63,364 nucleotides of DNA from a virus (lineage: Duplodnaviria; Caudoviricetes). A program made the translations under genes and the position numbers. The notes below the pieces were generated by a model that was not told where the DNA came from, ran no database searches, and was given only the letters and a program-made list of their open reading frames with translations. Shown here piece after piece: positions 2,749 through 61,268 of this stretch (position 1 is its first letter; each line of letters opens with the position of its first letter). Where the stretch lies: IMG/VR virus record IMGVR_UViG_3300034141_000032, positions 1-63,364 of that record; one strand, given 5' to 3'.

Positions 2749-2976
2749 TCAGTCGACGTGCGGGATAGCGAGCAGGTCGAACTGGCAAACGTGATCGGGG
2801 GCGAAGGCGTCGCGCAGCAGGGCGACAGCTTCCTCGCCGACGGCCTTGTCCGTGTAGGTGCGGATGATGCGCTTGAGGAAAGGCTGCGGCATCACTGTGC
2901 CCGGCGCGGCTGGGTTCGGGACTGCGATGTTCTGCATCTCGACCAGCACGAAGGTTTCAAATGGGCCGGCCATCAC
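2749..2976 (-). CDS. Hypothetical protein
   Basis: 75 aa, coupled to the upstream exonuclease gene. Confidence 0.6.
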   Translation of the reverse strand: MMAGPFETFVLVEMQNIAVPNPAAPGTVMPQPFLKRIIRTYTDKAVGEEAVALLRDAFAPDHVCQFDLLAIPHVD

Positions 2977-4010
2977 GCTGCCTCTGTGATGCGGATATTG
3001 CGGAACGGCGCGACGGTCGACTCGATCTGCGCTTCCTTGATCTGGGACAGCGAGATGGTGATGCGCTCGCTGGCGCTGCGTACGTAGCAGCGGAAGCTTT
3101 CCTTGTTGGTTCCGGCGCTGATCTTGCCGTCAGCGTAGACGATCGACTTGGCCGTCTGGATGATGGTGGTGATCTCGGCCTTGGCGGCGTCCTTGATCTC
3201 GGTGGCGGCCTTAATATCGGCGGCGGCCTGCTTGTAGGTCTTGCACAGCGTCGCCAGGCGCACGTTGTCGGACAGGTCGATGCTGGAACCATCGTTGTCG
3301 CGGTAGACGCGGGCGATGGCATCACCGTCCTTGTTGAAGTCTGGTTGCGGTGGCACGCCCGCGTCCACATAGGTCCAGAACTCGGCCGCCTTGAGCCTGA
3401 TCGCGGTGCCAGTGGCTTCGTCGCGCTCGCGGAAGATGGTCTTTGGTGTGTTTCCACCAACAAGTGGTGCGATTATCGACCACTCCAGACCTGCAACTTC
3501 GAGCTGGTGGGCGACTTGCATCTCGATGTGGGCGGGCGCTTCGATGGTTTCGCCATCGTCCACCCAGCCGCGGCGGAATTGTAGGCCGTCGACGTTCTTG
3601 ATCTCCAGGATGCCGTCGCCGTGCTTGCGGAACAGGTTGCGCGCCGTCTCGTCGCCGGTGAAGTGCTCGACGATGCCGACGACCTTGAAATCGAAGGAGG
3701 AGCCCATGCGCAGCTCGGGGATCCGCATGTAGACTTTGAACGGCTGGACGATCAGGCCCAGGTCTTCGGCCACGCCGGCGGCGATTGCGGCTTCCAGGCG
3801 ATTTCCCCACTTGGTCCGGTCGTTCGCCTCAAACGGAGCGGCCGGCAGCAGGCCAGCCTTGATATGATAGAGCTCGTAGAATGTGCGGGCGTTCTCATAA
3901 GCGCCGACATTGAACAGGCCAGCAGCTTCGGTGCTGGTCAGGTCCAGACGGCGCGCGGCCAGCCAGTCGGCCTCATTGGCGTGGACCAGTGTTTCGCGGG
4001 TGATTTGCAT
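2973..4010 (-). CDS. YqaJ-like viral recombinase exonuclease
   Basis: WLAARR..LTSTEAA, WGNRLE, SSFDF, LEIKN and QVAHQL motifs; adjacent to ERF. Confidence 0.9.
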   Translation of the reverse strand: MQITRETLVHANEADWLAARRLDLTSTEAAGLFNVGAYENARTFYELYHIKAGLLPAAPFEANDRTKWGNRLEAAIAAGVAEDLGLIVQPFKVYMRIPELRMGSSFDFKVVGIVEHFTGDETARNLFRKHGDGILEIKNVDGLQFRRGWVDDGETIEAPAHIEMQVAHQLEVAGLEWSIIAPLVGGNTPKTIFRERDEATGTAIRLKAAEFWTYVDAGVPPQPDFNKDGDAIARVYRDNDGSSIDLSDNVRLATLCKTYKQAAADIKAATEIKDAAKAEITTIIQTAKSIVYADGKISAGTNKESFRCYVRSASERITISLSQIKEAQIESTVAPFRNIRITEAA

Positions 4011-18426: not shown

Positions 18427-18517
18427 GGAAGTGTGGCCGAGTGGTAAGGCAGCCGGTTTGAACCCGGTAGGCGGCTTCACAAACCGCCCGCGGGTTCGAT
18501 TCCCGCCGCTTCCGCCA
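18427..18517 (+). tRNA. tRNA-Ser (anticodon TGA)
   Basis: Acceptor GGAAGTG/CGCTTCC, D-loop GAGTGGTAA, anticodon arm GCCGG-TTTGAAC-CCGGT, long variable arm, T-arm GCGGG-TTCGATT-CCCGC, discriminator G plus encoded CCA. Confidence 0.92.
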
Positions 18518-49400: not shown

Positions 49401-52400
49401 CCAGTTGAGCCGGCACCCCTAGCGACTTTGAGCGCAGTGCGCGAAGCGTGGGACAGCGCTGGCATCAAGAACAGCATCAGCGAGCGCAATGGCATCATCA
49501 GCCTGTCCCTGATCGTGGTGCCGATGGATGCCCGCAATCAAGGCATCGGCAAGAACGCCATGCGGCAACTGATCGAGCATGCTGACAAGTACCGCAAGAA
49601 AATTGTTCTGACACCATCGGACGACTTTGGTGGCAACAAGTCGCGCCTTATCAAATTCTATAAAGGTTTCGGATTTACCGAAAACAAAGGGAAAAACAAG
49701 GATTACGAAGTCAGCGAAAGCATGTACCGCATGCCCAACGTTGGCAAGAAGATGATGTTTTCTGTGACGGACGACAGCGCGACCACCGCGATTGCTGGCC
49801 TGATGTCCGCCAAGGAAGGCGAAGCCGTCATAAACCGCCCTGACGTGGGAGACATCACCGTCATGTACGGCGAAGACGGCAAGTCCGGCCTGTCGCACAT
49901 CGCCAAGCGACGCGGTACCGAGTTCATTGACCGGCTGCCGGCCCTGCTGCGCGACGGCAAGGTGTACGAGAAGGAAGGGCAAAAGGGTCGCATCTTCATC
50001 GGCAACGACCGCGACGAGGCCGTGATCCGCCTGGACCGCGACGGCAAAACCCAGAACTGGCTGCTGTCGGCCTACGAGAAGTACCCTGACCTGCAGGACG
50101 CCGTGCCGCGCCAGTCGCAGGCCGCCGCGCGCGCCGCTTCGCCGCTGAACAAGGCATCGCTGCGCAAAGCTGTCACGAGCAAGGGCGTGCTGGGCCATGT
50201 CATCGCGTCGATGATCGATTCCAACGTGGTCGTGCTGCACGACGGCCCGGGCAGTCTGCCCAAGGGCGCCGGCAAGAACATCAAGGGCGTGCAGGCGCTG
50301 ACCATGCCCGACGGCAGCATCCACCTGATCGCCAGCAATCTGACCGACCAGAACGCGCAGGCGGTGATGCTGCACGAGGCATTCCACCAGGGCGCCGAGA
50401 AGCTGATCGGCACGGCCGAGTGGGGCAAGCTGATGGGCCGCATGGGCTCGCTGTACCGTCAGGGCGAGCAGTCCACCGGCAAGGCCCGGGAGTTCTTCGA
50501 CAAGGCGCGTGCGCGCGTGGCTGCGGCCAAGGGCAAGGGCGCGATCGCCACCAGGATGGAAGTGGAGGAGTTCGCCGCCTACGCGATCGAGGAGTACGAA
50601 AGCGCGCCGCTGACCGTGCGCAAGTGGGTCGACGACCTGATCGGTCTGGTCAAGGCATGGCTGGTGGCGCGCTTCGGCAAGCAACTCGGCCCGGTAACGC
50701 CAGCGCAACTGTCTGCGTTCGCCAAGGTCGCCATCATGGATGCGGCATACCGCAGGCGAGGGGATATCTTCGGGCCAATTGGCGAGGTGTTCAGCGTAGG
50801 AGAGGAGCGCACCATCGAGGTCGACGGCGTGCGCCGGCCGATCACGAACAGCAAGGGGCAGCAGATCGCGCCTGAGTTCGCCCAGCAGCAAGCATTTTGG
50901 AACTGGTTCGGCGGCAGCGCCGTGACCGATGCCGACGGCAAGCCGCTGGTGGTTTATCACGGCACAGGCGCTGACATCGACACTTTCAAGGTGTCGGATA
51001 CTGGCACCTATGGTGGTGGCATCTATCTGACGCCCGACCTGAACGGGGCAAACGATTACGCCATGTATCGCGGCGCTCCTAGCTCCACGGTCTACCCTCT
51101 GTATGTCAGCATCAAGAACCCGGCCACCGGCTCCGAGGCAGCGCAGGTAGCTTCCTGGAAGGGGGAGGAAAACGCGCGCGCCGAGTTGATCAAGCGCGGC
51201 TACGATGGCGTGGTTGACATGCTCAGCGGGGAGATAGTCGCCTTCAATCCAGAGCAGATCAAGAGCGCCACCGGTAATGAAGGTACTTTCAATCCTGACA
51301 GCGCCGACATCCGCTACTCGGTCGCTGCCGATGTCGGCGCCACCGTCGACACCCCTGCCGAACCGGCCGGCCTGACGCCGCCCGAGCAGGGGCTGTTGCG
51401 CCGCGTGCAGTCGCAGATCCAGGACAACATGAACCGGCTCAAGCAGGTGCAAGAGCGGATCTTGGAACTGACCGGGCTCGAATCGCTGGGCAAGTCTGAC
51501 TATTACGGCGCCGAGACGAACCGGCCGGGCCGGATTGCCGCGCGCATGGAGGATGGGCAAAACTACCTGTTCGGCCCGCTAATGGAGCGCTTGGCGAAAG
51601 CCGGTCACACCATGGACCAGTTGGGCGAACTGCTGCACGCCCAGCACGCCAAGGAGCGCAACGAGCGCGTGGCCAGCATCAACCCGGCTATGCCTGACGG
51701 CGGCTCGGGCATGACGACCGCCCAGGCTGGCGAGATCCTGAAGAAATACGAGGGCGACGGCTTCAAGTCACTGCACCGGCTGGCCGAAGCGGCGCGCAAC
51801 ATCGCGCGCGCCACGCTGGACCTGAAGCTGGCCTATGGCCTGATCAAGTCCGAGGACCACGAAGCCCTGACCGAGATGTACGAAGCCTATGTCCCGCTCA
51901 AGGGTGACGGCGAGTACGGGCCCAAAATCAAGCGCGCCATGGGCCACGAAGAACGCGACGAGATGATCCTGGACAACATCTCGCGCGACTACAACCAGGC
52001 TGTTACGGTGGGCGAGAAGAACCTGGCCCGCCAGTCGCTGCTGCGCATGGTGCTGCAGTTCCCGCACAGCAAGCTGTGGACCGTGGGCGTGCCGCCGAAA
52101 GGGCGCTACGTGGCCGGCAAGGTCTACAACATCGTGCACCGCGGCGCGACCGTGGGCTCGTTCACATCGCGCTCGCAGGTCGATGCGTTCCTGGAAGCGA
52201 AGGGCGCGCAGGCCGGCCAGTACGAAGTGCTCGACTCGAACGGCGACCGCGTGGCCGAGTTCGTCAAGCCGCTGCAGGACAACGAGGTCATGGTCTACCT
52301 GAAGGGCGACCCGATCCGCATCCAGATCTTTGACGAGAAGCTGGCCGCCCAGCTCCGGCCGCTCAAGGGCGACCAGTTGCACCCGATCCTGGGCTTCATG

Positions 52401-54080
52401 CGCTCGGTCAACCAGTACCTTTCGAAGATCTACACCGGCTACAACCCGGCCTTCATCCTGCGCAACGCCGCGCGCGACCTGATGACCGGCAGCATTAACA
52501 TGATGGGCAACCAGGGCACGCTCACGGCCGCCAAGGCTTGGGGCAACTACCCGAAAGCCTGGGCGACCATGCTGAAGTGGGCCGCCACCAAGAAGATCCC
52601 GGACGGGCAGGCGGGCAACTACCTGAACGAATACCGCCAGCACGGCGGCAAGGTGGGCGCCTCGTGGTTGAGCGACATCGAGCAGCAGGGCAAGACGCTC
52701 GAGCGCATGTATGACGATGCCTATGGCGTTCGTGGCTACGTGAAGGACGGCCGTGTCGGCAAGGCGACCTGGATTGCCTCGCGCAAGATGGTCGGCGGCA
52801 TGGCGCATGTCGTCGAAGTGCTGAACCAGGCATTCGAGAACGCGCTGCGCCTGTCGCTGTTCATGGCACTGCGCCAGGACGGGCAATCGCCGGCGCTCGC
52901 TGCGCAGGCGGCCAAGGGCGTGACCGTGGACTTCGACCGCAAGGGCACCAGCACACCGGCGCTGGGCGCGATCTACCTGTTCTTCAACCCGGCAGTGCAG
53001 GGCACGGCCAACGGCATCAAGACGATCGTCAAGGGCAAGCACAAGGAGCAAGCTTGGGCAGCGCTGGGCGGGCTGGCGGCGCTGGGCTACCTGGCTGCGG
53101 CCATGGGCATGGACGATGACGAAGACCGCTGGCTTGGCGAAAGCTGGGAGGTCCGCGCCAAAAACTTTATGCTGACCGTGGGCGGGCACCAGATCCGCGT
53201 GCCGCTGTCGCAGGAATTCGCCCCGATCTACGCTTTCGGCGCATCCATGGCGGAAGCCTCGCGCGGGCAGAGCAAGCCGCTCGCCGCGGCGCATGTGGTC
53301 TCGTCCTTCATCGATGCCTACTTCCCGCTGCACGGCGCCGTGCGCGTGGAGAGCGACAATCACGCGCTGGACCTGGGCATGGCTACCGTGCCGACCGCGA
53401 TCAAGCCGTTCATGGAGAGCGCGGTCAACCGCAACACCTTCGGCAGCCAGATCGTGCCCGAGAGCGTCAACACCAAGGACCGGCCGGACAATCTGAAGAT
53501 GACGCGCGCGGTGAAGAATGGCGCCTATGACCGGGCAGCGCAGGGCATCGCGTCTGCTGGCGAGATGATGGGTGCAGGCACCTACGAGAACGACATCACG
53601 AAGGTGAGCCCGGAGACCCTGAAACACTACTGGCGCACCTACACCGGCGGCCTGGGTCAGTTCGTCGGCGACGTGGCCGGGCTGGGCATCATGCTGGCCG
53701 ACGACCCGACTCAGGCCAATTCCAGTGACGTGCCATTCGTGAAAGATTTCTACAAGACCAACGACGTCAAGCCGATCCGGGGCCGGTTCTACGACCTGTC
53801 GCGCGATGCCAAGGCGGCCATCACCGAGTTCGAGCAGGCCAAGAAGGCCGGCAACAACGACGCAATGGATGCGATCTTGAACGATGAGGCAAAGTCAGAC
53901 CTGGTGAGCCTGGGCCGCATGGTGCGCAACACCACGAAGGCGGCAACGGCCGTGCGCGACGAGGAAGTCGACATCAATGGTCGGAAAGACCTGTCGCCGG
54001 CCGAGAAGCGTGCCGCATTGAAGGCGCTCGAGCAGGACGAGGAAGCGTTGTACCGCTCGGGGATCGAGGCGTTCAAGTAA
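43410..54080 (+). CDS. Giant polyvalent virion protein (3556 aa): SLT, iPPase-like, LPD5/LPD1-like, GNAT, BECR-like, zincin, ART-PolyVal-like, LPD38-like
   Basis: HQES..AKGMMQ (SLT); GNYKKG..HYGY..GAD.EQVDVY..DEHK (iPPase-like); IADFGQKLEGARKD; FRGVQFGN..LAHEWFH; RNQGIGK..FYKGFGF; GLSHI; MLHEAFH..EE; PLVVYHGT..GIYLT..GYDGV..EIVAF.PEQIKSA. Confidence 0.9.
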   Translation: MATTPKLFQSPFDVMTSEEEDKGLLPGQQATKPVESPEIKANTAPSEAAPAPAPEPVRASRRPAKTERYLPPSDLRPMFDTAAQKYDVPVNVIMALAHQESRYNSKAIGQETEWGRAKGMMQNLDATAKGLGINPFDPEQAIDAASKQIRERLDKGYSMIDAVREHFAGPDRKKWGKKTEAYGNEVMEKVGKIGAMLFGADDPDGQARAPAAAAPDLQQELDAEEPGRYRVMSEDDVAKYEQSQVVLPGLGAPPAASGINPKERTWGEALGDTGVQLAEGVNTILGAVPSLVAPESKAAAFFDDNAKAWRDKQSTDLKARSAKASAAIDKAGEDGVMAQISEAASQYFSDPGLAARFVVTNLPSMIPGIGAAKLAQAAALARGAAAAKAAAVATTAAGGVNAVLNGGGARGEAFNDIKRTLIAQGKSEAEAEEAAIKDSRVVAAVGAVTGFVSGKTGLEGALAGSAARNVGKAAAVRAGAAGALTELAGEQLEEVAPKLTANYQASEYDGRSLGKDVGRTVVETGIASGPGAAIAGGAAGINAAARLTPEQEVAAEINRQVDEVNFVGQDAAVRAAMDPNNESVDPASTRKPAPEAPPSAPAPAPSQAAGPLSRAAENTAAQADQPTRVTITTPDGEVAGAGALQAFQENEVGGFNAQIVGDDGQVYNLSDQDGVQITPEAKADAGPLSRSVTVAADQHAAAPAMPNQNALAEIEATKPKPPPAPPGPPNYSDMDLPALRERLKYIAQQAKASGGMNKMFLDHRKAVEKAINAKVSEAKEASKLSEEPLTSGPFDDRAAANKMALRTAEKTGVPQEVVEAKGKFNLKPMQEAGDAVPPTAEGRDLPAPAMPNDQQPVAAIPADEPGAGSAVPVLDAGAKPNALKKPRKQKDKTNDGTATPVSGMGNERSDGAAPAAQDGQDQQGGRAGDRDPVAGAQADTGSADPAAGPGVPDAGATNDGKPALKVKDAHAGKWFSTEEKARAYLTKSKAGTTHRVEQTGRVRFEVKPKDGKTGADKMAEAKVRIERQESEVAKAQANIDARKAAKAAPASEIDAAANEAATSPTNDLPEPTQAQAEAGNYKKGKISVHGLDISVENPRGSTRSGTDPDGKAWSHTMSDHYGYIKRTTGADNEQVDVYVGPKPESDKVYVVDQIDQPTGKFDEHKIMMGYASRQAAVSAYKSNFDKGWKVGPVKGMSVDEFKAWLKEGDTTKPAAETAPANEKVPDVAPIEQQASAGGDPVATAGGSRPAPVAKPKKLTGKASAAERARQLADYFAPGNIVKGYGGHDRIISFAQDDQGGITVEAQHVIKKDGEWIVAPGTDGRVRKHATMPGPGEFKAGPVMRAQKEAPAEQVAAPIADFGQKLEGARKDLWAGFKISMREALPENVKDITLAKHFPEPNYEALLAEGVDVKILAAMKAMRDEIPAKPRVPYKAKRWGEQVSALRDFANDLLDGKLTADALLAKMRQFNQGSLRKFADRIEMYADLGYPLFTKAKGYSIEKNHYNMFRGETPPGGITKFELSADGRSSYFDNRDDAVAALREKLGAATATGPKTVKLDLYRTTGSRDIIIGKKVGAGKYIDLKGGFTDVRSARTYLAENQVELEKLLEQKKDVRPERRSVNDPRVGVDRRKGEDVTPEKFGTTFGFRGVQFGNYVEQKRRAVDLNNAYDALLDLADLLGLPPQALSLNGTLGLAFGARGAGGKNAAAAHFEPDNIVINLTKTNGAGSLAHEWFHGFDNYFERMRGAKGAGHVTDRPEVRKIADADRKLVDDDSVRPEVLAAVKGVMDAIRASGMPKRSRDLDARRSKDYWSTTHELAARAFESYIIDKAAEQGLANDYMANIVSEEAHNVLDEMAGSAEPFPYPTRAEAPAINAAFDKLFEVVETRDEGGRPVMYSVSGASDLSGPAERRLVKALEEAEFWLKVNGKTADLSQFEPNVAVSMLDEMMGFGTENFSDKAKEQGRAIWDRVSAAQKQMYRVGRMANGIGAELLPAPITPVEPAPLATLSAVREAWDSAGIKNSISERNGIISLSLIVVPMDARNQGIGKNAMRQLIEHADKYRKKIVLTPSDDFGGNKSRLIKFYKGFGFTENKGKNKDYEVSESMYRMPNVGKKMMFSVTDDSATTAIAGLMSAKEGEAVINRPDVGDITVMYGEDGKSGLSHIAKRRGTEFIDRLPALLRDGKVYEKEGQKGRIFIGNDRDEAVIRLDRDGKTQNWLLSAYEKYPDLQDAVPRQSQAAARAASPLNKASLRKAVTSKGVLGHVIASMIDSNVVVLHDGPGSLPKGAGKNIKGVQALTMPDGSIHLIASNLTDQNAQAVMLHEAFHQGAEKLIGTAEWGKLMGRMGSLYRQGEQSTGKAREFFDKARARVAAAKGKGAIATRMEVEEFAAYAIEEYESAPLTVRKWVDDLIGLVKAWLVARFGKQLGPVTPAQLSAFAKVAIMDAAYRRRGDIFGPIGEVFSVGEERTIEVDGVRRPITNSKGQQIAPEFAQQQAFWNWFGGSAVTDADGKPLVVYHGTGADIDTFKVSDTGTYGGGIYLTPDLNGANDYAMYRGAPSSTVYPLYVSIKNPATGSEAAQVASWKGEENARAELIKRGYDGVVDMLSGEIVAFNPEQIKSATGNEGTFNPDSADIRYSVAADVGATVDTPAEPAGLTPPEQGLLRRVQSQIQDNMNRLKQVQERILELTGLESLGKSDYYGAETNRPGRIAARMEDGQNYLFGPLMERLAKAGHTMDQLGELLHAQHAKERNERVASINPAMPDGGSGMTTAQAGEILKKYEGDGFKSLHRLAEAARNIARATLDLKLAYGLIKSEDHEALTEMYEAYVPLKGDGEYGPKIKRAMGHEERDEMILDNISRDYNQAVTVGEKNLARQSLLRMVLQFPHSKLWTVGVPPKGRYVAGKVYNIVHRGATVGSFTSRSQVDAFLEAKGAQAGQYEVLDSNGDRVAEFVKPLQDNEVMVYLKGDPIRIQIFDEKLAAQLRPLKGDQLHPILGFMRSVNQYLSKIYTGYNPAFILRNAARDLMTGSINMMGNQGTLTAAKAWGNYPKAWATMLKWAATKKIPDGQAGNYLNEYRQHGGKVGASWLSDIEQQGKTLERMYDDAYGVRGYVKDGRVGKATWIASRKMVGGMAHVVEVLNQAFENALRLSLFMALRQDGQSPALAAQAAKGVTVDFDRKGTSTPALGAIYLFFNPAVQGTANGIKTIVKGKHKEQAWAALGGLAALGYLAAAMGMDDDEDRWLGESWEVRAKNFMLTVGGHQIRVPLSQEFAPIYAFGASMAEASRGQSKPLAAAHVVSSFIDAYFPLHGAVRVESDNHALDLGMATVPTAIKPFMESAVNRNTFGSQIVPESVNTKDRPDNLKMTRAVKNGAYDRAAQGIASAGEMMGAGTYENDITKVSPETLKHYWRTYTGGLGQFVGDVAGLGIMLADDPTQANSSDVPFVKDFYKTNDVKPIRGRFYDLSRDAKAAITEFEQAKKAGNNDAMDAILNDEAKSDLVSLGRMVRNTTKAATAVRDEEVDINGRKDLSPAEKRAALKALEQDEEALYRSGIEAFK
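45910..46059 (+). CDS. Putative overprinted small protein (49 aa) nested in the giant gene
   Basis: AGGAGG 6 nt before ATG; host frame has T/A-rich third positions; C-terminus resembles that of the 46090 ORF. Confidence 0.5.
   Translation: MQYHQLPKGAIYQPLQCRMINSQSPLSPLMNPVLGALYLFWMPVPNRTH
46090..46302 (+). CDS. Putative overprinted small protein (70 aa) nested in the giant gene
   Basis: AAGGA upstream; protein-like helical sequence using CTG/ATC/CGC codons while host-frame GC3 collapses. Confidence 0.6.
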   Translation: MTGRLPLFLEWEMSARTALRRLRKMGRISKEDAQAIEILSLARKPIPDRLIPLLDLVFLMQVRPMTESLH

Positions 54081-54193
54081 CGGAACATCGGTGGAAAATG
54101 CGGGTAGGAAAATTCCTAACAGCAAAATACTGGTATGATTTCCGAACCGGAACAGATAAAATCGGTCCATCAAAAACAATGATGGGCCGCTGG

Positions 54194-54547
54194 ATGAACG
54201 AGGAGATCAAACAGGTAACAGACTTGGCCCAAAACCCCGGCTCAGTCTCATGGTTCGCCTATTCGTGGATAGTAATTTTAGCCATTTTGGGAGGTGTCGT
54301 GAGAGTAGTTCGAGAAGTGGAACTAGGGGGTAAGTCGTGGCGGCAGATCTGCTTCATCTTTTTTGCGGAGCTGCTGACGTCGTTATTTGTTGGTCTGATC
54401 ACATTCTTCATCTGCCGTTCGGCGGACTTCAACGACATCAAGACGGCCGCCATGGTCAGCATCGCAAGCTACATGGGCAGCCGGGCGCTGACGGTAGCGG
54501 AAGCTGCCTACAAGGCGATCATCAAGTCACTGGCGAAGGGCGGGTAA
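54194..54547 (+). CDS. Holin
   Basis: 2-3 TM segments, ILAILGGVV...SYMGSRAL, basic C-terminus; directly before the endolysin. Confidence 0.8.
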   Translation: MNEEIKQVTDLAQNPGSVSWFAYSWIVILAILGGVVRVVREVELGGKSWRQICFIFFAELLTSLFVGLITFFICRSADFNDIKTAAMVSIASYMGSRALTVAEAAYKAIIKSLAKGG

Positions 54548-54550
54548 GCG

Positions 54551-55171
54551 ATGAACCTGGATCAGATCAAGCGCATTATGCCAAACACCACGCGCGGCGC
54601 GGTATTCCTCAACCCGCTGCTGCGCGCGATGGAAGAATTCGGCATTGTCGGCACCGAGCAGCAAGCGCGGTTCCTGGGCAACATCGGCGCCGAGACGGGC
54701 AACCTGTCGGTGTTCGACGAAAACCTGAACTACAGCGCCGAGCGCTTGACGCAGGTTTGGCCCAAGCGTTTCCCGACGATCGCATCCACACAAGGCTATG
54801 CCCGCAACCCGGTGGCGCTGGCCTGCAAGGTCTACGCGAACCGAATGGGCAACGGTGACGAGAAAAGCGGCGACGGCTGGCGCTACCGCGGCGCCGGCAT
54901 GCTCCAACTGACCGGCAAAGAAAATCACGCGGCCTGCGCCAAGCACTTCGGCCTTCCGATCGAGCAGGTGGGCGACTGGCTGCGCACGCCGGAAGGCGCC
55001 GCCCGCTCGGCCGCCTGGTTCTATACCTCGCGCGGGCTGCATAAGGTCGACACGTTCGACCACGTTTGCGACCGCATCAACATCGGCCGCGAGACGGATC
55101 GGATTGGCGACGCGCACGGCTTCGCGCACCGCAAGGCCATCTACGATGTCGCCCGCAAGGAACTGGCGTGA
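54551..55171 (+). CDS. Endolysin, glycoside hydrolase family 19
   Basis: ARFLGNIGAETG...ENLNYSA...YANRMGNG..GDGWRYRGAGMLQLTGK.N. Confidence 0.92.
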   Translation: MNLDQIKRIMPNTTRGAVFLNPLLRAMEEFGIVGTEQQARFLGNIGAETGNLSVFDENLNYSAERLTQVWPKRFPTIASTQGYARNPVALACKVYANRMGNGDEKSGDGWRYRGAGMLQLTGKENHAACAKHFGLPIEQVGDWLRTPEGAARSAAWFYTSRGLHKVDTFDHVCDRINIGRETDRIGDAHGFAHRKAIYDVARKELA

Positions 55172-55515
55172 ACGTCCAGACGATGCACCTGATCCTGGCC
55201 GCCGGCGCGGTGGCCATCCTGGTCACGTTCTGGATCGCGCACCGCGCGCGCAACACGTTCAACCTGCTGGACCTGCTGATGAAGGACGGCCGCGTTTGCC
55301 GGGTCGCCGTGGCGTTCATGCTGGTGCTGGCTGTCTCCACCTGGGTCATCATCGACCTGCAGATCAACGGCAAGCTGACCGAAGGCTATTTCACCATCTA
55401 CACCGGCGCCTGGATCATTCCGCTGGTCGCCCGGCTGGTGTCGAACAAGGACGCCAGCACGTCGCTGACGATGACGACCGTCACGCAAGAAACTACTGAA
55501 AAGGCCACGCCATGA
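55168..55515 (+). CDS. Membrane protein in lysis cassette (holin/antiholin-like)
   Basis: Three hydrophobic segments; GTGA overlap. Confidence 0.65.
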   Translation: MNVQTMHLILAAGAVAILVTFWIAHRARNTFNLLDLLMKDGRVCRVAVAFMLVLAVSTWVIIDLQINGKLTEGYFTIYTGAWIIPLVARLVSNKDASTSLTMTTVTQETTEKATP

Positions 55516-56033
55516 TCGCCGGACTGTTGAAAGCATTCTGGAAGCCACTCGTCGGCATCCTTATCGTGGTGGCGCTGTACTTCGCATGGCAATCGCACGA
55601 GGCCACCGTCTACCAGCGCGGCTATGACGCGGCAGTCTCTGAGCGCAAGCAACAGGACGACGAGCGCCTGGCGCTCAAGACCGCCCAGGCTTTCGCCGAA
55701 ACCAACGCCCTGCGCGAGCGTATGGACGCCGATTCGACCGCACGACTTATTGAGAGGAAGACGTATGAAACTACTATTGATGGTCTTCGGGCTGATGCTC
55801 GCCGCGGCAACAGCGGGATGCGCGCACCAGGCACCTGCGTACCTCGAAACACCACGCCCGCAGATTCCACCACTGCCAGCGGACCTGTCGATCAAGAAGG
55901 ATTCGAGCTCCTGCCGGAAACTGCTGAAAGCGTTCTCGACGCCGCCAGCGAACTCCGAAACAGTGTGCAAGATCGCAACAAGCTGATCGACCTGTACAAC
56001 CAGATGCGCGCCACCTGCAACGCATCGCCGTAA
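55512..56033 (+). CDS. i-spanin (Rz-like)
   Basis: N-terminal TM followed by a periplasmic coiled coil. Confidence 0.85.
   Translation: MIAGLLKAFWKPLVGILIVVALYFAWQSHEATVYQRGYDAAVSERKQQDDERLALKTAQAFAETNALRERMDADSTARLIERKTYETTIDGLRADARRGNSGMRAPGTCVPRNTTPADSTTASGPVDQEGFELLPETAESVLDAASELRNSVQDRNKLIDLYNQMRATCNASP
55765..55986 (+). CDS. o-spanin (Rz1-like lipoprotein) embedded in the i-spanin
   Basis: GAGG RBS; signal MKLLLMVFGLMLAAATAG-C lipobox; Pro-rich mature part; +1 frame. Confidence 0.85.
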   Translation: MKLLLMVFGLMLAAATAGCAHQAPAYLETPRPQIPPLPADLSIKKDSSSCRKLLKAFSTPPANSETVCKIATS

Positions 56034-56066
56034 CCGTGTCTCCCCGGCCGCGTCACCGCGGCCTTT

Positions 56067-56096
56067 GCCCCTGCCTTTACTGGTAGGGGCTTTTTT
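56067..56096 (+). terminator. Rho-independent terminator of the late operon
   Basis: GCCCCTGCC-N6-GGTAGGGGC-TTTTTT. Confidence 0.85.
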
Positions 56097-56316
56097 GCAG
56101 TACCGAATAGTTCGGGGTAAGACCGCACGCTGGTGACTCGGATAAGCCCAGCAGGCGCGCACGAATTGGAAGCTGGGGGCTTTTACCTGTCTTCGGACAG
56201 GGTTTTCCCCGGCGCGGGGCGCGTCAGTACCGATTGATCGTTAAGCGCGTTTCCCGACAGATAGTCGCCGGAACTTGGGCTATGCTACAGCCATTATCCA
56301 ACGAGTGAGGCGCACC

Positions 56317-56490
56317 ATGCACACTGAACTGCAACTTCCTGATAAGCGACCAACCTGGCGCGGCTTCCTGGTGCTGGGCATTGCCGGATCCGTCACCTAT
56401 GCCGCCGTTGCGCTGGTCGGTGAGATCGCCATCGGCGCGGCCGCTGGCCTGACCGCTGGATACTTGTTCGCCCGAGTGACGAAATGGTAA
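56317..56490 (+). CDS. Small membrane protein (57 aa)
   Basis: GAGG RBS, TATGCT -10-like box at 56281, two hydrophobic segments. Confidence 0.6.
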   Translation: MHTELQLPDKRPTWRGFLVLGIAGSVTYAAVALVGEIAIGAAAGLTAGYLFARVTKW

Positions 56491-56547
56491 TCTGCTAGAA
56501 TCCGATAGCAAAAATCAATCACGTCAGCGCATGACAGGCGCATAATA

Positions 56548-57080
56548 GCTTCTCCCAATGCAATAAGGGGCCGCGTCGCTGCGGCGGGAGAAGCGTCAAC
56601 GATCGGATCGGGTTCAACGCCGTGACGGTACAAGCTGGGGTAGGGCCAGCCGGGCTCGCTGCCGTATAGCGACGGATTCGACTGGTTCGAGAGCGCGCAT
56701 GGCGTGCCAGTCACCACAGAGCAAGGGTATCCAAACGGGTAAGGGATGCGACCCCGGGCGCTTAAACCGGGATCAATCGCAGCAATAAGTTGGTTCGAGT
56801 CCAGCCCCTTGCTCTGTGGTGAATGCGCAGGCTGATGCGCAATGCTGTGCCTCCACCTGGTCAGACGGGCAGCGGCAGCGGAGAATGCGAGTTAGCTCTG
56901 ATGCGACCTCGCCGAACCTGCCAAGGAGAATGTCGGAGATCAGCACCGGCCACCACAAAGAGCATGACTGCTGGGGACTGAGCCGCTGGTTTGTCGGGTT
57001 AGCTTAATAAGCGCTCGCGCAAGCGAGGACACCATGCTCCGAAGGGTTGATCCAGCAGGAAAACTCGACCGCAATGCTGG
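56548..57080 (+). ncRNA. Putative array of structured non-coding RNAs
   Basis: Consecutive closed multi-stem folds separated by 0-5 nt in the core, a GCAA tetraloop and a T-loop, no credible ORF, CATAAT box at 56541. Confidence 0.65.
56718..56815 (+). ncRNA. tRNA-like element with expanded anticodon arm
   Basis: AGAGCAAGGG/CCCTTGCTCT stem, TA linker, D-arm with GGTAA, T-arm GTTGG-TTCGAGT-CCAGC; 25 nt in place of the 7-nt anticodon loop; no CCA. Confidence 0.65.
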
Positions 57081-57095
57081 GCGTACGCCAGCTAC

Positions 57096-58157
57096 CTATT
57101 CAGGCGCGCTAACCACGGCGAGCCACTTCCAGCCGGCCCACTTGTCGCCCGCCTGCCGCATGTGGGTGTAGCGCTTCAAGCTGCCCCAGCTCCGGTGCCC
57201 GCTGACCGCTGCGACATGCGGGATATTCCAGCCCATCTCGAACAACCGGCTGCAGCCTTCGTGCCGCAGGTCGTGCAGATGCAGGTTGTCGATCCCGAGG
57301 AACTGCCCCGCTCGCGTGAAGGCGGCGCCGATCGCATCCGTGGAATACGGGAAGATGCACTCGCTGGCGCGCGGCATTGAACGGGCGATCGCTTCGGCTT
57401 CCGGTGGCAGGTCGCACCACACATGGTTGCCGATCTTCTCGCCCGGGTTCTTCATGTCGCGCACCAGCACGCGGCCCGGCTCCAGGTCGGCCCACGCGAT
57501 GCGCGTGATCTCCTCAAGCCGGCGCGTCGAGAACATGGCGAAGGCGGCGATCTTCTGCATGGGGATGCTGTCGCGGCGCTTGTGACGGATCTGGCCGAAG
57601 TGCTCCATCAGAAGGTCCATCTCGGCGATCGTCGGGCGGCGCTCGCGCGGCTGGCTCTTGCCGGTAACGCCCAGCTTCTTGCCGACGACGAATGTGTCCT
57701 TGATGGCCTGCTGGTCCAGCGGATAGCCCCAGGCCGGGCGCGCGATGGCGAACACTGCGCCCAGGTGGGATAGGTAATTCTGGACGGTCTGGGGCTTGCC
57801 GCCCAGGCGCCGAGCGAACGCCAGCAGGGCAGGGCTGTCGACCTTCGAGCACAGCATGGATCCGATGTCGTCCGCTTTGATCGTGCGCAGAACCTGAGCC
57901 TTGGTGCGCCCGATGTCGTGCTTCGACTCAACGATGTAGCGCTCGATGGCCACGGCCAAGGTCGGATCCTCGCGCCGGTCCAGGGCGCCCGGCTCGGCCA
58001 GCTCCGTCTCGCGCCGCTTCATCCAGGCTGCTGCCGCCTGCTTCCGGTCGAAGGTTTGCGTCTCCCGGTGGACAATCCTACCTTCACGCTTCAAGACGAT
58101 CTGCGCGCTGTAGCCGACGGTGCCGTCGCTGCGAGGTTTCGAGACGATGCTGCCCAT
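57096..58157 (-). CDS. int: Tyrosine integrase (dusA-associated type)
   Basis: STRRLEEI (R), DMKNP (K), HDLRHEG (HxxR), SGHRSW (H), LKRYTH (Y); adjacent dusA fragment. Confidence 0.93.
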   Translation of the reverse strand: MGSIVSKPRSDGTVGYSAQIVLKREGRIVHRETQTFDRKQAAAAWMKRRETELAEPGALDRREDPTLAVAIERYIVESKHDIGRTKAQVLRTIKADDIGSMLCSKVDSPALLAFARRLGGKPQTVQNYLSHLGAVFAIARPAWGYPLDQQAIKDTFVVGKKLGVTGKSQPRERRPTIAEMDLLMEHFGQIRHKRRDSIPMQKIAAFAMFSTRRLEEITRIAWADLEPGRVLVRDMKNPGEKIGNHVWCDLPPEAEAIARSMPRASECIFPYSTDAIGAAFTRAGQFLGIDNLHLHDLRHEGCSRLFEMGWNIPHVAAVSGHRSWGSLKRYTHMRQAGDKWAGWKWLAVVSAPE

Positions 58158-59674: not shown

Positions 59675-60265
59675 TTAGGCTGCCTTGCGATCAGCTACCG
59701 ACTTCGGCACTTCGTCCTTTTCCAGCGTCTTCTTGAAACCGACGCCGGCGGCGATGTGGTACAGGACTATGCCTTCGGGCTTCATGAAGCCGGGCGCAGC
59801 CAGGCTGCCGTTGTCGCGCAGCTCGCCCAGCGCGCTTTCCGCAGCATCGCCGGTGAAGTCGCCGCGGTACAGGGTCGGTACGACCAAGCAGCAGGCCGGG
59901 CGCACTGCATCGTCTTCCCAGCGGCTGACATTGAACAGCGAGAAGCGCTTGTCTTCTATGCCGTACCTGCGCTGGATGCCGCAGCCCCACCATTCGCCGA
60001 AGTGGCGACCGGGCCCGAGTTTCAGGAGTTCTTCGCCGTTCTCTTGCGCCCACTTGGCGAAACCATAGTTATCGTCTTCTGGCGTGATCCAGCGCGTGCG
60101 GCTGCCAGCGTACAGCGCCAGGCCACCACTCTGGTAGATCGCGCCCGGGGCTTCGTGCCCCTCCAGTTCGACGATGGCGACCTGCGCATTGGTGCCGTCG
60201 ATTTTCTCGGTGATGATGATCTCGCGCGTGAGCCGCGCCATTTTTGGGAAGTCCTGAAATTCCAT
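59675..60265 (-). CDS. RNA ligase (Rnl2-like adenylation domain)
   Basis: TEKIDGTN (KxDG), GSR, FGEW.G.GIQ, FSLFN, VVPTLY.G, PEGIV, FKK. Confidence 0.85.
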   Translation of the reverse strand: MEFQDFPKMARLTREIIITEKIDGTNAQVAIVELEGHEAPGAIYQSGGLALYAGSRTRWITPEDDNYGFAKWAQENGEELLKLGPGRHFGEWWGCGIQRRYGIEDKRFSLFNVSRWEDDAVRPACCLVVPTLYRGDFTGDAAESALGELRDNGSLAAPGFMKPEGIVLYHIAAGVGFKKTLEKDEVPKSVADRKAA

Positions 60266-60312
60266 AGCATCTCCATGTTGCGCCGCCCGGATCGGTGGGC
60301 GGCTGCCCGTTA

Positions 60313-60816
60313 CTATTTGTGCCGGAATGGCACCGGCTGGAGCTCGTAGGGCAGCATCAGCGGATGTCCCGGCGAACCGTTGCCCGTGATCCGCAGGCAG
60401 TGCGTCTCTATGCCCTTGTCGCGCAGCCAAGCGATCACCTGCAGGTCGCGGCGCAGGTGGCCACCGTTCAGGCCCCAAGCGCAGATCGTCAGGCCGCCCG
60501 CGCCGGCCACGTCGGCAATGTGCTGATCGTTGTCCGGCCCGACCGGGTCGACCGCCTTGCGCATGACCTTCGGGTCGCGCGCCCGGAAGGCGAACAGGTT
60601 GACCACGGTCAGGGCATTGAAGCCCAGCCGGTTCGTGAAACCGATGCACTTCCTGATGGTGGCATCGTTTTCGATGTGGTCGGCGGTCGACGGGTTCAGC
60701 ATGATCCATACCAGCGCCTTACCGTCGCCCCAGCGGCGCCCGAGCTGGTAGCGGTACTGCTGGCAATCGGAGAGGACAGCGGTACGATCCATGAACAGGT
60801 CGCTGGCGGCGCTCAC
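60313..60816 (-). CDS. DUF1643 family protein
   Basis: YRYQLGRRW, IMLNPSTAD...DATI, VVNLFA.RA.DP, ICAWG, PGHPL. Confidence 0.85.
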   Translation of the reverse strand: MSAASDLFMDRTAVLSDCQQYRYQLGRRWGDGKALVWIMLNPSTADHIENDATIRKCIGFTNRLGFNALTVVNLFAFRARDPKVMRKAVDPVGPDNDQHIADVAGAGGLTICAWGLNGGHLRRDLQVIAWLRDKGIETHCLRITGNGSPGHPLMLPYELQPVPFRHK

Positions 60817-61268
60817 GGCTTCACCTTGGCGATGATGGCGGCAAGGTCGACCTCGTCACGCATGCGCAAGTGGACCTTAATTGCTGCGCCGGAAGCCGCG
60901 TCGCTAGTCCAGGAGCCATCAGTCTTCTCAAGGCACGCGCGTTTTACCGCTTCAGCGATAGCCATGTCGCGGGCGGCGCGCTTATCTTCCGCGAAGCGAC
61001 GGCCTTCGGCATACGCCTTGTTCAGTTGAGGCTGGAGCGTATCCACGACGAGATTCGGCCTGGAAAGCAGCCGGGGAGTGTACCACTTCGCTTTTTCAAG
61101 ATCATGGTTGCCGCCCTTATGCTTTTCCCGCCACATATAGCGCATGACGGTGCCCTTGATGAAGCCGCGGTATTCTTCTTGCGTCAATGCCGCCTCGATG
61201 GCGTCGATGCACTCGATATGCCCGGCGTTATACCGGTGCGGGTGATTCACTTCTTCTTTTGTGCTCAT
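60813..61268 (-). CDS. DUF3310 family protein
   Basis: VNHPHRY..G.IECIDAI...GFIKG.VMRY.WR..HKGG..DLEKAKWY. Confidence 0.85.
   Translation of the reverse strand: MSTKEEVNHPHRYNAGHIECIDAIEAALTQEEYRGFIKGTVMRYMWREKHKGGNHDLEKAKWYTPRLLSRPNLVVDTLQPQLNKAYAEGRRFAEDKRAARDMAIAEAVKRACLEKTDGSWTSDAASGAAIKVHLRMRDEVDLAAIIAKVKP

What the first reader, a model, noticed from the sequence alone, without database searches (positions are those of the whole stretch)
56718..56815. tRNA mimic with intact elbow but rebuilt anticodon arm
Seen: perfect 10-bp acceptor-like stem, U8-A9, D-arm TCC-AAACGGGTAA-GGGA and a canonical T-arm (TTCGAGT loop). The anticodon stem TGCGA/TCGCA encloses a second helix CCCGG/CCGGG with loop GCGCTTAAA instead of a 7-nt loop, and no CCA is encoded. 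The stem can extend to 17 bp through TCACCAC/GTGGTGA, which competes with the closing stems of elements C and E. Inference: not a decoding tRNA but an elbow-preserving mimic or processing signal, perhaps with a folding-order switch.
Basis: partly seen in the sequence, partly recalled or inferred. Interest (0 to 1): 0.7.

Follow-up and report, generated by a model that had tools for sequence, protein, structure and literature searches.

The report
tRNA-shaped module of a phage RNA
The tRNA look-alike is real, is not a working tRNA, and is the variable insert of a conserved structured RNA found in many phages that no annotation names.

Summary
ARAGORN does not call it a tRNA, and the best Rfam match is tRNA-Sec at 17.3 bits (threshold 47).

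It does not stand alone. Its long stem is the "A stem" of a two-part RNA element:
- Module A: a long hairpin around a variable insert.
- Module B: a tRNA-shaped four-way junction at 56811-56962. Its D-like and T-like loops are complementary to each other.

A 23-base pattern from module B hit at least 120 viral contigs. A copy from locus L075 matched 189 phage records and 1070 of 5426 complete E. coli genomes, with no feature annotated under any of the 12 hits listed. It lies in lambdoid late-operon leaders, after the P1-type tRNA genes, and inside phage tRNA arrays.

Both modules show compensatory base changes: 14 of 17 pairs in B and 15 of 18 in A, with at most 1 of 500 shuffles reaching any measure. 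Conserved G-U pairs place the RNA on the + strand.

The rebuilt anticodon arm was found in no relative. A T arm at the same position recurs in 8 of 125 loci.

Function is inferred: a tRNA-derived processing or stability module.

The parts
56680..56712 (+). Hairpin H0 just 5' of the element: GACTGG (56680-85) pairs with CCAGTC (56707-12). Its 3' strand overlaps the TCACCAC block by 2 nt.
   Evidence: Sequence. A hairpin of the same stem directly precedes the same block in L003 (GACTGG-CGTAA-CCAGTC) and L073 (GGCTGG-CGTAA-CCAGCC). Read by eye, not scored.
56711..56717 (+). Upstream block X-up (TCACCAC), complementary to GTGGTGA at 56816-22.
   Evidence: It is paired in the MFE folds. Equivalent upstream blocks covary with the central block in L009, L069, L073, L082, L084 and L111.
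56718..56815 (+). The reported tRNA-like unit, which is the inner A stem plus variable insert V1 of module A. It has a 10-bp stem, U8/A9, a D arm (56730-45), a two-storey 'anticodon' arm (56747-81), a 7-nt variable stretch, and a T arm (56789-56805, loop TTCGAGT).
   Evidence: Not called by ARAGORN or Rfam. The model of module A (R2) hits 56728-56822 at 53.6 bits, but the window is one of R2's own 10 seed rows, so this hit is by construction; its 5' strand was also misaligned in the seed.
56806..56822 (+). Central shared strand X' (CCCTTGCTCTGTGGTGA). Its left part closes the tRNA-like unit. Its right part (56815-21) is the 5' strand of the module B closing stem.
56811..56962 (+). Module B, a conserved tRNA-shaped four-way junction:
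- Closing stem 56815-21 with 56951-57.
- H2: GCGCA-GGCTGA-TGCGC (56825-40), in the D-arm position.
- Variable arm V2, about 56841-56931.
- H3: GTCGG-AGATCAGCA-CCGGC (56932-50), in the T-arm position, abutting the closing stem with 0 nt between them.
   Evidence: Model R1 hits 56811-56962 at 92.6 bits, but the window is one of R1's own 17 seed rows, so this hit is by construction. RNAalifold on 17 sequences finds the three helices. On 69 distinct sequences 98.6% of cells pair and 14 of 17 pairs compensate, with 0 of 500 shuffles as high. The MFE of the module alone gives the same helices, but z is only -0.79.
56831..56836 (+). H2 loop GCTGAT, perfectly complementary to ATCAGC in the H3 loop (56939-44). 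This is a proposed kissing contact in place of the tRNA D-loop/T-loop elbow.
   Evidence: Complementarity read. Variants keep it only through conserved letters or G-U (TCAGT), so there is no true covariation. HK75 replaces both loops together with canonical D and T loops. Inferred.
56951..56963 (+). Downstream block X-down (CACCACAAAGAGC), a near direct repeat of 56712-56723. It can pair with 56811-56821 (12 pairs with one bulged A).
   Evidence: The outer pairs of this stem covary in 17-18 of 69 sequences.
57050..57095 (+). Probable 3' end region of the RNA: a GCTGGGCG-TA-CGCCAGC hairpin just before the stop codon of the convergent integrase gene.
   Evidence: Sequence. L003 and L009 carry clear G+C hairpin plus T-run terminators on this strand at the same place. 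In the window the T run is weak and the terminator scan did not call it. Tentative.

Best explanation
The stretch 56718-56815 is not a tRNA gene. It is the variable insert (V1), with its closing stem, of the first module of a two-module structured RNA on the + strand. That RNA runs from about 56680 to at least 56963.

- Module A is a long, covarying hairpin (the 'A stem') that holds a variable insert in every relative. In this phage the insert is an almost complete tRNA body: D arm, T arm and a doubled-length anticodon arm.
- Module B follows immediately. It is a conserved junction with tRNA topology, in which the D-like and T-like loops are complementary to each other.
- The two modules share one strand (56806-56822). 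It can pair upstream, lengthening the tRNA-like stem to 17 bp or more, or downstream, closing module B. The fold is therefore bistable or ordered in time.

The element belongs to a large, unannotated family of phage RNAs. Members are co-transcribed with phage tRNAs or late or lysis genes.

Inferred mechanism: the modules derive from tRNA. The cell's tRNA-handling machinery, RNase P above all, treats them like tRNAs. They then serve as punctuation or stabilising structures for the transcript that carries them, and the variable arms are free to diverge.

Shown here: the structure, the family, the strand and the tRNA-array context. Inferred: transcription in this phage, recognition by RNase P, and any switching.
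For: Anatomy and stability:
-.

Not a tRNA:
-.

The family:
- Only L003 and L009, 2 of 63 integrase-linked viral loci, share DNA similarity here. They keep the closing stem and two conserved blocks while the insert differs.
- A copy from locus L075 matched 189 phage records and 1070 of 5426 complete E. coli genomes; no feature is annotated under any of the 12 hits listed.

Context:
- HK75: between the tR' terminator and the holin gene.
- CUS-3: between Q and S.
- P1-like JL22: directly after tRNA-Asn and tRNA-Thr.

Module B:
- Model R1 gave 72 matches in 79 sources and 67 in 64.
- 98.6% of cells pair against 90.8% when shuffled. 14 of 17 pairs compensate, with 0 of 500 shuffles as high. G-U pairs are conserved at two positions.

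Module A:
- Model R2 gave 90 matches in 100 sources.
- 86.8% of cells pair against 75.6% when shuffled. 15 of 18 pairs compensate. Covariation score is 0.366 against 0.165, with 0 of 500 shuffles as high. One U-G pair is conserved in 51 of 82 sequences.

tRNA likeness recurs in the family:
- GTTCRANYC lies 8-38 nt 5' of the central block in 8 of 125 motif-bearing loci. About 0.5 are expected, my arithmetic from the rate.
- In seven of these sequences a hairpin with a 7-nt loop sits next to the 3' strand of the long stem: the MFE folds of the window, L090, L103, L110, L080 and L187, and the centroid fold of L180.
- Module B of HK75 has canonical D and T arms.

tRNA arrays:
- In 14 of 120 pattern loci, tRNA genes lie within about 320 nt, always on the motif strand (14 of 14).
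- In 7 loci a tRNA starts 0-15 nt after module B.

Origin:
- The T arm plus 3' acceptor 20-mer is identical to real tRNA-Tyr and tRNA-Met genes.
Against: - No relative with this particular insert was found: 0 viral hits for a 24-mer and a 17-mer, and the 3 metagenome hits are ordinary tRNAs. The rebuilt anticodon arm has no comparative support and could be neutral.
- Transcription is not shown. No sigma-70-like promoter was found in 55900-57300.
- RNA-run assemblies hold the L075 copy, but the tool states this does not show transcription. The one raw-read run laid 0 reads.
- Most family members (7 of 8 or more) carry no T arm in V1, so tRNA likeness of V1 is not a defining feature.
- No CCA is consistently encoded after either module.
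- The loci were collected with a pattern lying in H2, so the invariance of H2 is ascertainment. The alignments used for pair counts were fitted to the models.
- The kissing contact shows no true covariation.
- The MFE z-score of module B alone is not significant.
- In thermodynamic prediction of the 291-nt context, the upstream pairing wins and module B is disrupted.
Confidence: 0.6

Rival explanations
1. A decaying pseudo-tRNA. A phage or host tRNA gene landed in the variable slot of the element, lost its anticodon loop to an insertion, and is drifting without any function of its own.
For: The T arm and 3' acceptor strand are letter-identical over 20 nt to real tRNA-Tyr and tRNA-Met genes. 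No relative keeps this insert. V1 is the most variable part of the family.
Against: Nothing looks decayed. All 10 (or 17) stem pairs are perfect, and both storeys of the enlarged arm are perfect 5-bp helices. U8, the A14-like A, the GG of the D loop and the T loop are all intact. The fold z-score is -6.1. The stem is the family's covarying A stem, not a free-standing acceptor stem. HK75 shows the same intact-elbow, enlarged-arm design in another module.
Confidence: 0.15
2. A regulatory switch in cis. The alternative pairings of the shared strand (upstream or downstream partner) decide termination, processing or stability of the transcript. Read on the opposite strand, the long perfect hairpin could be an RNase III-type retroregulation site in the 3' UTR of the convergent integrase mRNA. 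The lambda sib analogy is recalled, not tested.
For: Three-way complementarity is present in the window. It recurs with concerted changes in L003, L009, L069, L073, L082, L084 and L111. In the window the upstream complement even extends over H2. In the window, L003 and L009 the element is convergent with int.
Against: In most enteric copies the upstream strand overlaps only about 6 nt of the module B closing strand, so both helices can largely coexist. The element is not linked to integrase in general: 0 of 80 genomic integrase loci and 2 of 63 viral ones carry it. G-U pairs fix the functional strand as +, which argues against the antisense reading.
Confidence: 0.12
3. A remnant of an attachment site. 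As in P22 and L, a tRNA-like gene beside int would carry attP and rebuild a host tRNA on integration.
For: The element lies 281 nt beyond the stop codon of a tyrosine integrase gene. Phage L has a 'tRNA-like gene' with attP just downstream of int (passage read in PMC8022706).
Against: ARAGORN found no tRNA gene within 2.5 kb of the integrase relatives in 30 of 30 bacterial genome loci examined, out of 80 fetched. The conserved element occurs far from any integrase, in late leaders and tRNA arrays. Both strands of the acceptor stem and a 5' half are present, not just a 3' tRNA fragment. Covariation points to an RNA structure.
Confidence: 0.04
4. A bacterial Y-RNA-like molecule: a long basal stem that binds a Ro/Rsr protein, plus a tRNA-like domain that tethers an exonuclease.
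For: The architecture resembles YrlA-type RNAs as I recall them: a long terminal stem, canonical D and T arms, and an altered anticodon arm.
Against: No TROVE/Rsr gene is in the record; the control genomes did ring. No Y-RNA family matched at E <= 10. The basal stem is a perfect duplex without the bulged helix that I recall as the Ro site.
Confidence: 0.03

Closest known systems
Canonical tRNA (Rfam RF00005) and phage tRNA genes
   Same: Acceptor-like stem stacked on a 5-bp T stem with a TTCGAGT loop. U8/A9. A D loop with GG. Junction lengths as in tRNA. The T arm and 3' acceptor strand are identical over 20 nt to real tRNA-Tyr and tRNA-Met genes. Family members sit in tRNA arrays at tRNA-like spacing.
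   Different: No 7-nt anticodon loop. The arm is doubled in length. The stem has 10-17 bp instead of 7. There is no discriminator plus CCA. Scores fall below both detectors' thresholds.
Non-tRNA substrates and mimics with a tRNA elbow (bacterial Y RNA YrlA, tmRNA tRNA-like domain, mascRNA, plant-virus TLS); recalled, none tested beyond Rfam
   Same: They keep the acceptor/T-arm stack and elbow while replacing the anticodon arm. They are used as handles for tRNA-processing or tRNA-binding proteins.
   Different: No Rfam family of this kind matched. No Rsr gene is present. ARAGORN calls no tmRNA. Here the unit is embedded in a longer modular RNA and shares a strand with the next module.
P1/P7 c4 antisense RNA (Rfam C4, RF01695) and P4 CI RNA; their biology recalled
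   Same: Phage RNAs as I recall them, cut out by RNase P, in which a central sequence is complementary to sites both upstream and downstream on the same transcript.
   Different: C4 did not match the window at E <= 10. In L067 and L074 genuine C4 and isrK hits lie about 2.4 kb from the element, so they are separate genes. Here the complementary blocks are helix strands of structured modules, not target sites at a ribosome-binding site.
'Boundary sequences' bsq3/bsq4 annotated in phage CUS-3
   Same: Same place. The L075 copy matches 1501-1861 of the CUS-3 locus, between Q and S, and touches the features labelled bsq4 (1452-1515) and bsq3 (1807-2047) at its two ends.
   Different: They were annotated as DNA features marking mosaic joints (label only; I did not see the source paper), not as an RNA structure. 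They cover only the edges of the element.
Large phage-associated RNAs next to tRNAs (GOLLD, ROOL); association with tRNAs recalled
   Same: Phage-borne, non-coding, modular with variable domains, often beside or around tRNA genes.
   Different: No Rfam match. Much smaller units of about 100-150 nt. Proteobacterial temperate phages. The fold is tRNA-shaped.

Membership tests
tRNA (RF00005 / ARAGORN) | Recognised by tRNA detectors above threshold | tested here: not met
   ARAGORN finds only tRNA-Ser at 18427-18517. Rfam at gathering thresholds finds nothing here. The best clan match is tRNA-Sec at 17.3 bits against a gathering score of 47, E = 3.7.
tRNA (RF00005 / ARAGORN) | T arm with a TTCRANY loop, and a D loop with GG after U8 | tested here: met
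   GTTGG-TTCGAGT-CCAGC at 56789-56805. TA at 56728-29. D loop AAACGGGTAA.
tRNA (RF00005 / ARAGORN) | 5-bp anticodon stem closing a 7-nt loop with U33; 7-bp acceptor stem, discriminator and CCA (encoded or added) | tested here: not met
   The outer 5-bp stem encloses a second 5-bp helix with a 9-nt loop. The stem continues to 10-17 bp. GTGGTGA follows instead of NCCA. Post-transcriptional CCA addition cannot be tested here.
Bacterial Y RNA (YrlA type) | Match to a Y-RNA model; encoded with an Rsr (TROVE) gene | tested here: not met
   No such family among the 6 matches at E <= 10. PF05731 gives 0 matches in the record, while 2 control genomes rang. The host genome is unknown.
C4 / isrK antisense RNAs | Match to RF01695 or RF01394 | tested here: not met
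   No match in 55800-57600 at E <= 10. Matches in L067 and L074 lie elsewhere in those loci.
attP-bearing tRNA-like gene (P22/L type) | The integrase family targets a tRNA gene whose 3' part is copied in the phage | tested here: not met
   0 tRNA genes within 2.5 kb in 30 of 30 integrase loci scanned, out of 80 fetched. The true attB of this phage was not determined.
New family proposed here (A-stem hairpin plus tRNA-shaped module B) | Module B: closing stem, H2 and H3 helices with conserved loops | tested here: met
   The three helices are read directly in the window sequence and appear in its MFE fold. R1 scores 92.6 bits at 56811-56962, but the window is a seed row of R1, so that hit is by construction. 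Covariation rests on the other sequences.
New family proposed here (A-stem hairpin plus tRNA-shaped module B) | Module A: a long covarying stem directly 5' of module B that shares its 3' strand with it and encloses a variable insert | tested here: met
   The 17-bp stem 56711-27 with 56806-22. L003 keeps the same stem with two mismatches and another insert. Family-wide covariation. The R2 hit in the window (53.6 bits) is by construction, because the window is a seed row, and it is shifted on the 5' side.
New family proposed here (A-stem hairpin plus tRNA-shaped module B) | Transcribed and functional as RNA | tested here: inconclusive
   Strand-specific G-U pairs and co-orientation with tRNAs in 14 of 14 loci argue for RNA. 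Read data did not show transcription.

The most novel reading that the evidence does not exclude
This would be a previously undescribed and very widespread class of modular phage RNAs built from chains of tRNA-shaped units. In some units the tRNA elbow is replaced by a Watson-Crick loop-loop contact. Neighbouring units share a strand that can migrate between two helices. The units act as tRNA mimics that engage RNase P or other tRNA-binding host factors, possibly including tRNA-targeting defence nucleases. Their exchangeable arms (V1, V2), such as the doubled anticodon arm here, are presented as specificity or cargo domains.
Probability: 0.25. Interest if true: 0.85.

Novelty: new variant of a known kind. 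Interest (0 to 1): 0.62.

Why it matters
If this reading holds, a structured RNA carried by about a fifth of complete E. coli genomes has gone unnamed. It is also found in lambdoid phages, in P1-type phage-plasmids, and in phages as distant as this 63-kb one.

The element sits exactly where late transcription and lysis are controlled in lambdoid phages. That makes it directly testable in standard laboratory phages such as HK75-type lambdoids and P1.

It would also be a natural example of tRNA architecture reused as a building block. Some copies have a canonical elbow, others a base-paired substitute, and the arms are freely exchangeable.

For this window specifically, it turns an odd "broken tRNA" into one interpretable module of a defined element.

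Tried and rejected
- **Known RNA families.** Rfam gathering and permissive scans of the window and a gathering scan of 16 related loci found no family covering the element.
- **Near-identical phage DNA.** blastn of the 551-nt gap against annotated phages gave only a 38-nt match in 4 Klebsiella phages.
- **Close relatives of this phage.** The 71-aa neighbour ORF had no relatives. The spanin had one (L271), carrying only a 20-bit R1 hit. So I found no close relative that could test conservation of the insert.
- **Exact-word scans for the insert.** 0 viral hits. 3 metagenome hits, all ordinary tRNAs.
- **Ro/Rsr.** None found.
- **Host range of the motif.** 1 of 401 genomes sampled from the class of one integrase-bearing genome matched the pattern. 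The control pattern also matched once, so this is chance level. R1 found nothing in 3 integrase-bearing genomes.
- **Expression.** RNA-library contigs X1, X4 and X5 contain the L075 copy, but the tool says this does not show transcription. Raw-read run X23 laid 0 reads. There is therefore no evidence on ends or processing.
- **Literature.** Seven searches found no description of this element.
  - From PMC8022706, the bioRxiv preprint 10.64898/2026.05.13.724894 (outline, sections 12 and 17, passages), PMC8550237 and PMC10690425 I read passages only.
  - The Pas sRNAs lie next to the same holin genes, and PasA is said to be cut from a longer transcript. I could not test whether they overlap the element, because no coordinates appear in the text and supplements are closed.
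  - The 10,006 candidate viral RNAs of PMC10690425 may include it. Their list is in supplements that I could not see.
  - The P1 genome paper (PMC523184) is not held.
- **Seed alignment for module A.** MAFFT misplaced the window's 5' strand. Model R2 therefore aligns the window from 56728 only.
Full report
**The observation.** The sequence at 56718-56815 is as described.
- A perfect 10-bp stem: AGAGCAAGGG with CCCTTGCTCT.
- TA at the U8/A9 positions.
- A D arm: TCC / AAACGGGTAA / GGG.
- An outer 5-bp stem (TGCGA with TCGCA) enclosing a second perfect 5-bp helix (CCCGG with CCGGG) with a 9-nt loop.
- A 7-nt variable stretch.
- A T arm, GTTGG-TTCGAGT-CCAGC, stacked directly on the 3' strand of the long stem.
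- No CCA follows.
- TCACCAC (56711-17) and GTGGTGA (56816-22) extend the stem to 17 bp.

The fold is far more stable than shuffled sequence: -57.4 against -34.3 +/- 3.8 kcal/mol, z = -6.1, 0 of 200 shuffles as good (one search is similar).

**Not a tRNA by the usual tests.** ARAGORN calls one tRNA in the window, tRNA-Ser(UGA) at 18427-18517, and nothing here. Rfam at gathering thresholds agrees. A permissive scan of 55800-57600 lists six weak matches. The only one on this stretch is tRNA-Sec at 17.3 bits, against a threshold of 47, with E = 3.7.

**Setting.** The window is a 63,364-bp virus record that CheckV rates complete. The element lies in a 600-nt gap.
- Upstream on the same strand: holin (54098-54547), endolysin (54551-55171), spanin (55512-56033), a strong terminator hairpin (56067-56090), and a 71-aa ORF (56275-56490).
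- Downstream, convergent: a tyrosine integrase gene (57096-58157, minus strand).

**Relatives.**
- Of 63 viral loci with a related integrase, only L003 and L009 share DNA similarity with the gap.
- Reading them showed two conserved blocks, GGTGAATGCGCAGGCTGATGCGC and GGAGATCAGCACCGGCCACCA.
- They keep the closing stem. L003 has the same stem with two mismatches. L009 has CCATCATG with CATGATGG instead.
- The interior is completely different in each.
- The copy in L075 matched 189 annotated phage records: Escherichia 71, Klebsiella 40, Salmonella 39 and others.
- It also matched 1070 of 5426 complete E. coli genomes, with 239 places on plasmids. All 12 hits listed show no annotated feature under the match.
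- In HK75 it lies between the tR' terminator and the holin gene.
- In CUS-3 it lies between Q and S, touching features labelled 'boundary sequence'.
- In the P1-like phage JL22 it follows tRNA-Asn and tRNA-Thr directly.
- Rfam has no family for it.

**Module B.** From GTGGTG to CACCAC the family shares a four-way junction.
- A closing stem.
- Two or three unpaired bases.
- Hairpin H2: GCGCA-GGCTGA-TGCGC.
- A variable arm, V2, of about 25-200 nt.
- A few unpaired bases.
- Hairpin H3: GCCGG-AGATCAGCA-CCGGC.
- The closing strand follows H3 with no base between them.

These junction lengths are those of tRNA; that comparison rests on textbook knowledge.

A covariance model, R1, found 72 matches in 79 sources and 67 in 64. 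In the window it matches only 56811-56962, at 92.6 bits; the window is one of R1's seed rows, so that match is by construction. On 69 distinct sequences 98.6% of cells pair, against 90.8% in shuffles. 14 of 17 pairs show changes on both sides, and 0 of 500 shuffles reach any measure. Slid controls fall to 29-54%. G-U pairs are frequent at two positions (10 and 8 sequences), which fixes the RNA strand.

Two caveats apply. The loci were collected with a word inside H2. The alignment was fitted to the model.

The H2 loop GCTGAT is exactly complementary to ATCAGC in the H3 loop. Variants keep this only by conservation or G-U, so the contact is inferred. In HK75 both loops are replaced together by a canonical D arm (GCTC-AATGGC-GAGC) and a canonical T arm (GCCGG-TTCGATT-CCGGC), with about 75 nt in the anticodon position.

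**Module A, and where the finding belongs.** Directly 5' of module B every relative has a long irregular hairpin. Its 3' strand runs into GTGGTG.
- Enteric type: CAACAGGTAAGAGCATTG ... CAGTGCTCTTTCCGTTG.
- A second type: CAACACGCATGGGGATTG ... CAGTCCCCAGCCGTGTTG.
- The window and L003 have a third type.

Model R2 found 90 matches in 100 sources, often several per locus. The P1-like locus has four A hairpins and three B modules in alternation. On 82 distinct sequences 86.8% of cells pair, against 75.6% in shuffles. 15 of 18 pairs compensate. 155 cells changed on both sides, against 44.6 expected. The covariation score is 0.366 against 0.165. One U-G pair is kept in 51 sequences. At most 1 of 500 shuffles reaches any measure.

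V1 differs almost everywhere, but tRNA parts recur.
- A T-loop word (GTTCRANYC) lies 8-38 nt 5' of the central block in 8 of 125 motif-bearing loci: the window, L068, L080, L090, L103, L110, L111 and L180.
- I expect about 0.5 from its frequency in the window, 15 matches on both strands of 63,364 bases (my arithmetic).
- Folds place a 7-nt-loop hairpin next to the 3' strand of the long stem in the MFE of the window, L090, L103, L110, L080 and L187, and in the centroid of L180.
- L003 keeps the stem of that hairpin (GCTGG with CCAGC) but has an 8-nt loop that is not a T loop.

**tRNA arrays.**
- ARAGORN on the 120 pattern loci found tRNA genes in 15.
- In 14 of them the tRNAs are within about 320 nt of the element, and all 14 are on its strand.
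- The element can sit inside an array (L070, L112).
- In 7 loci a tRNA begins 0-15 nt after the end of the R1 match: L122 at 0; L070 and L170 at 1; L094 second copy and L176 at 3; L155 at 6; L066 at 15.
- That is the spacing seen between neighbouring tRNAs in these arrays.

**The competing pairings.**
- The central strand pairs with a downstream block in all copies.
- It pairs with the upstream strand of the A stem as well.
- In the enteric type the overlap is about 6 nt (GTTGTG).
- In the window, L003, L009, L069, L073, L082, L084, L090 and L111 the upstream strand complements the whole block. It changes in step with the block: CACCAC, CACTAC, CCATCA, CACCAAC.
- In the window the downstream block CACCACAAAGAGC is nearly a direct repeat of the upstream strand.
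- The predicted fold of 56676-56966 prefers the upstream partner and even pairs the upstream flank with H2.
- Module B alone folds into the family structure.
- So the element can adopt two arrangements. Whether it switches between them is not shown.

**Rivals.**
- *Attachment-site remnant.* Unlikely. 30 integrase loci scanned, out of 80 fetched from bacterial genomes (mostly Alphaproteobacteria by record title), have no tRNA within 2.5 kb. None of the 80 carries the motif.
- *Decaying tRNA.* This fits the origin, because the 20-mer of T arm plus acceptor is identical to real tRNA-Tyr and tRNA-Met genes. It also fits the lack of any relative with this insert. But nothing in the unit is degraded.
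- *Y-RNA-like.* This fails on the Rfam and TROVE tests.

**Mechanism (inference).** The units have tRNA topology. Some have canonical elbows. They lie on the tRNA strand at tRNA spacing, or in long leaders before lysis genes. The simplest reading is that they derive from tRNA and are handled like tRNAs, as cleavage points or as stable structured ends for the transcripts that carry them. RNase P recognises the acceptor/T-arm stack and elbow; this is established knowledge, recalled.

The doubled anticodon arm of this copy would then be a tolerated or cargo feature, not a decoding part.

I put 0.6 on this whole reading. I put much more, about 0.85, on the structural and family part alone.

**Novelty and limits.**
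- I found no description in Rfam 15 or in seven literature searches.
- The element may be hidden in supplementary catalogues that I could not open.
- It may also be related to the Pas sRNAs beside the same holin genes.
- The script machine was lost, so alignments and counts rely on the built-in tools and on reading.

Noticed in passing
window 59675-61268 (-): An RNA ligase (PF09414; phrog_548) sits next to a nucleotide-kinase-like gene (phrog_236 and others). This looks like an RNA-repair pair of the kind phages use against tRNA-cleaving defences; that use is recalled. It lies 3-4 kb from the tRNA-like element.
   Followed up: partly
window 43410-54080 (+): A 3556-aa ORF. Its last 1356 residues carry ART-PolyVal and LPD38 domains, marking a giant 'polyvalent' phage protein.
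   Followed up: no
window 56037-56097 (+): A strong terminator hairpin after the spanin gene gives sub-threshold Rfam hits: Betaproteobacteria toxic sRNA at 31.3 bits against a threshold of 50, and anti-hemB. These probably reflect only the terminator shape.
   Followed up: no
L187 (P1-like phage JL22) 2432-3332: Three module B copies (2514-2653, 2943-3049, 3204-3332) alternate with four A-type hairpins over about 900 nt after tRNA-Asn and tRNA-Thr. The annotated plp and gp76 ORFs lie on the opposite strand across this array.
   Followed up: partly
L185 (phage HK75) 2581-2715: A module B variant with canonical tRNA D and T arms and about 75 nt in the anticodon position. R1 scores it at only 20.5 bits, and the record annotates nothing across it; I did not run ARAGORN on it.
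   Followed up: partly
L122 2728-2917; L170 151-389; L070 3373-3600; L176 3432-3645: tRNA-Met or tRNA-Ser genes begin 0-3 nt after the end of module B, as if the module were one more gene of the tRNA array.
   Followed up: partly
L065, L068, L087, L089, L118 just 5' of module A: A small conserved hairpin (CTCCAC-GAAA-CGGAG or GCCACAC-GAAA-CGTGGC) directly precedes the A stem in enteric copies. The window, L003 and L073 have a different hairpin (GnCTGG ... CCAGnC) at that place.
   Followed up: no
E. coli genome collection: 1070 of 5426 complete E. coli genomes hold the element, up to 4 places per genome and 239 places on plasmids. All 12 hits listed show no annotated feature.
   Followed up: partly
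L075 1660-1734: After module B the lambdoid copies carry a hairpin followed by a T run, just upstream of the holin gene. Its place and size recall the PasA/PasC sRNAs described in EPEC. Identity was not tested.
   Followed up: no
L067 2538-2726; L074 2965-3153: Genuine C4 antisense RNA and isrK matches lie about 2.4 kb from the element in two enteric prophage loci.
   Followed up: no
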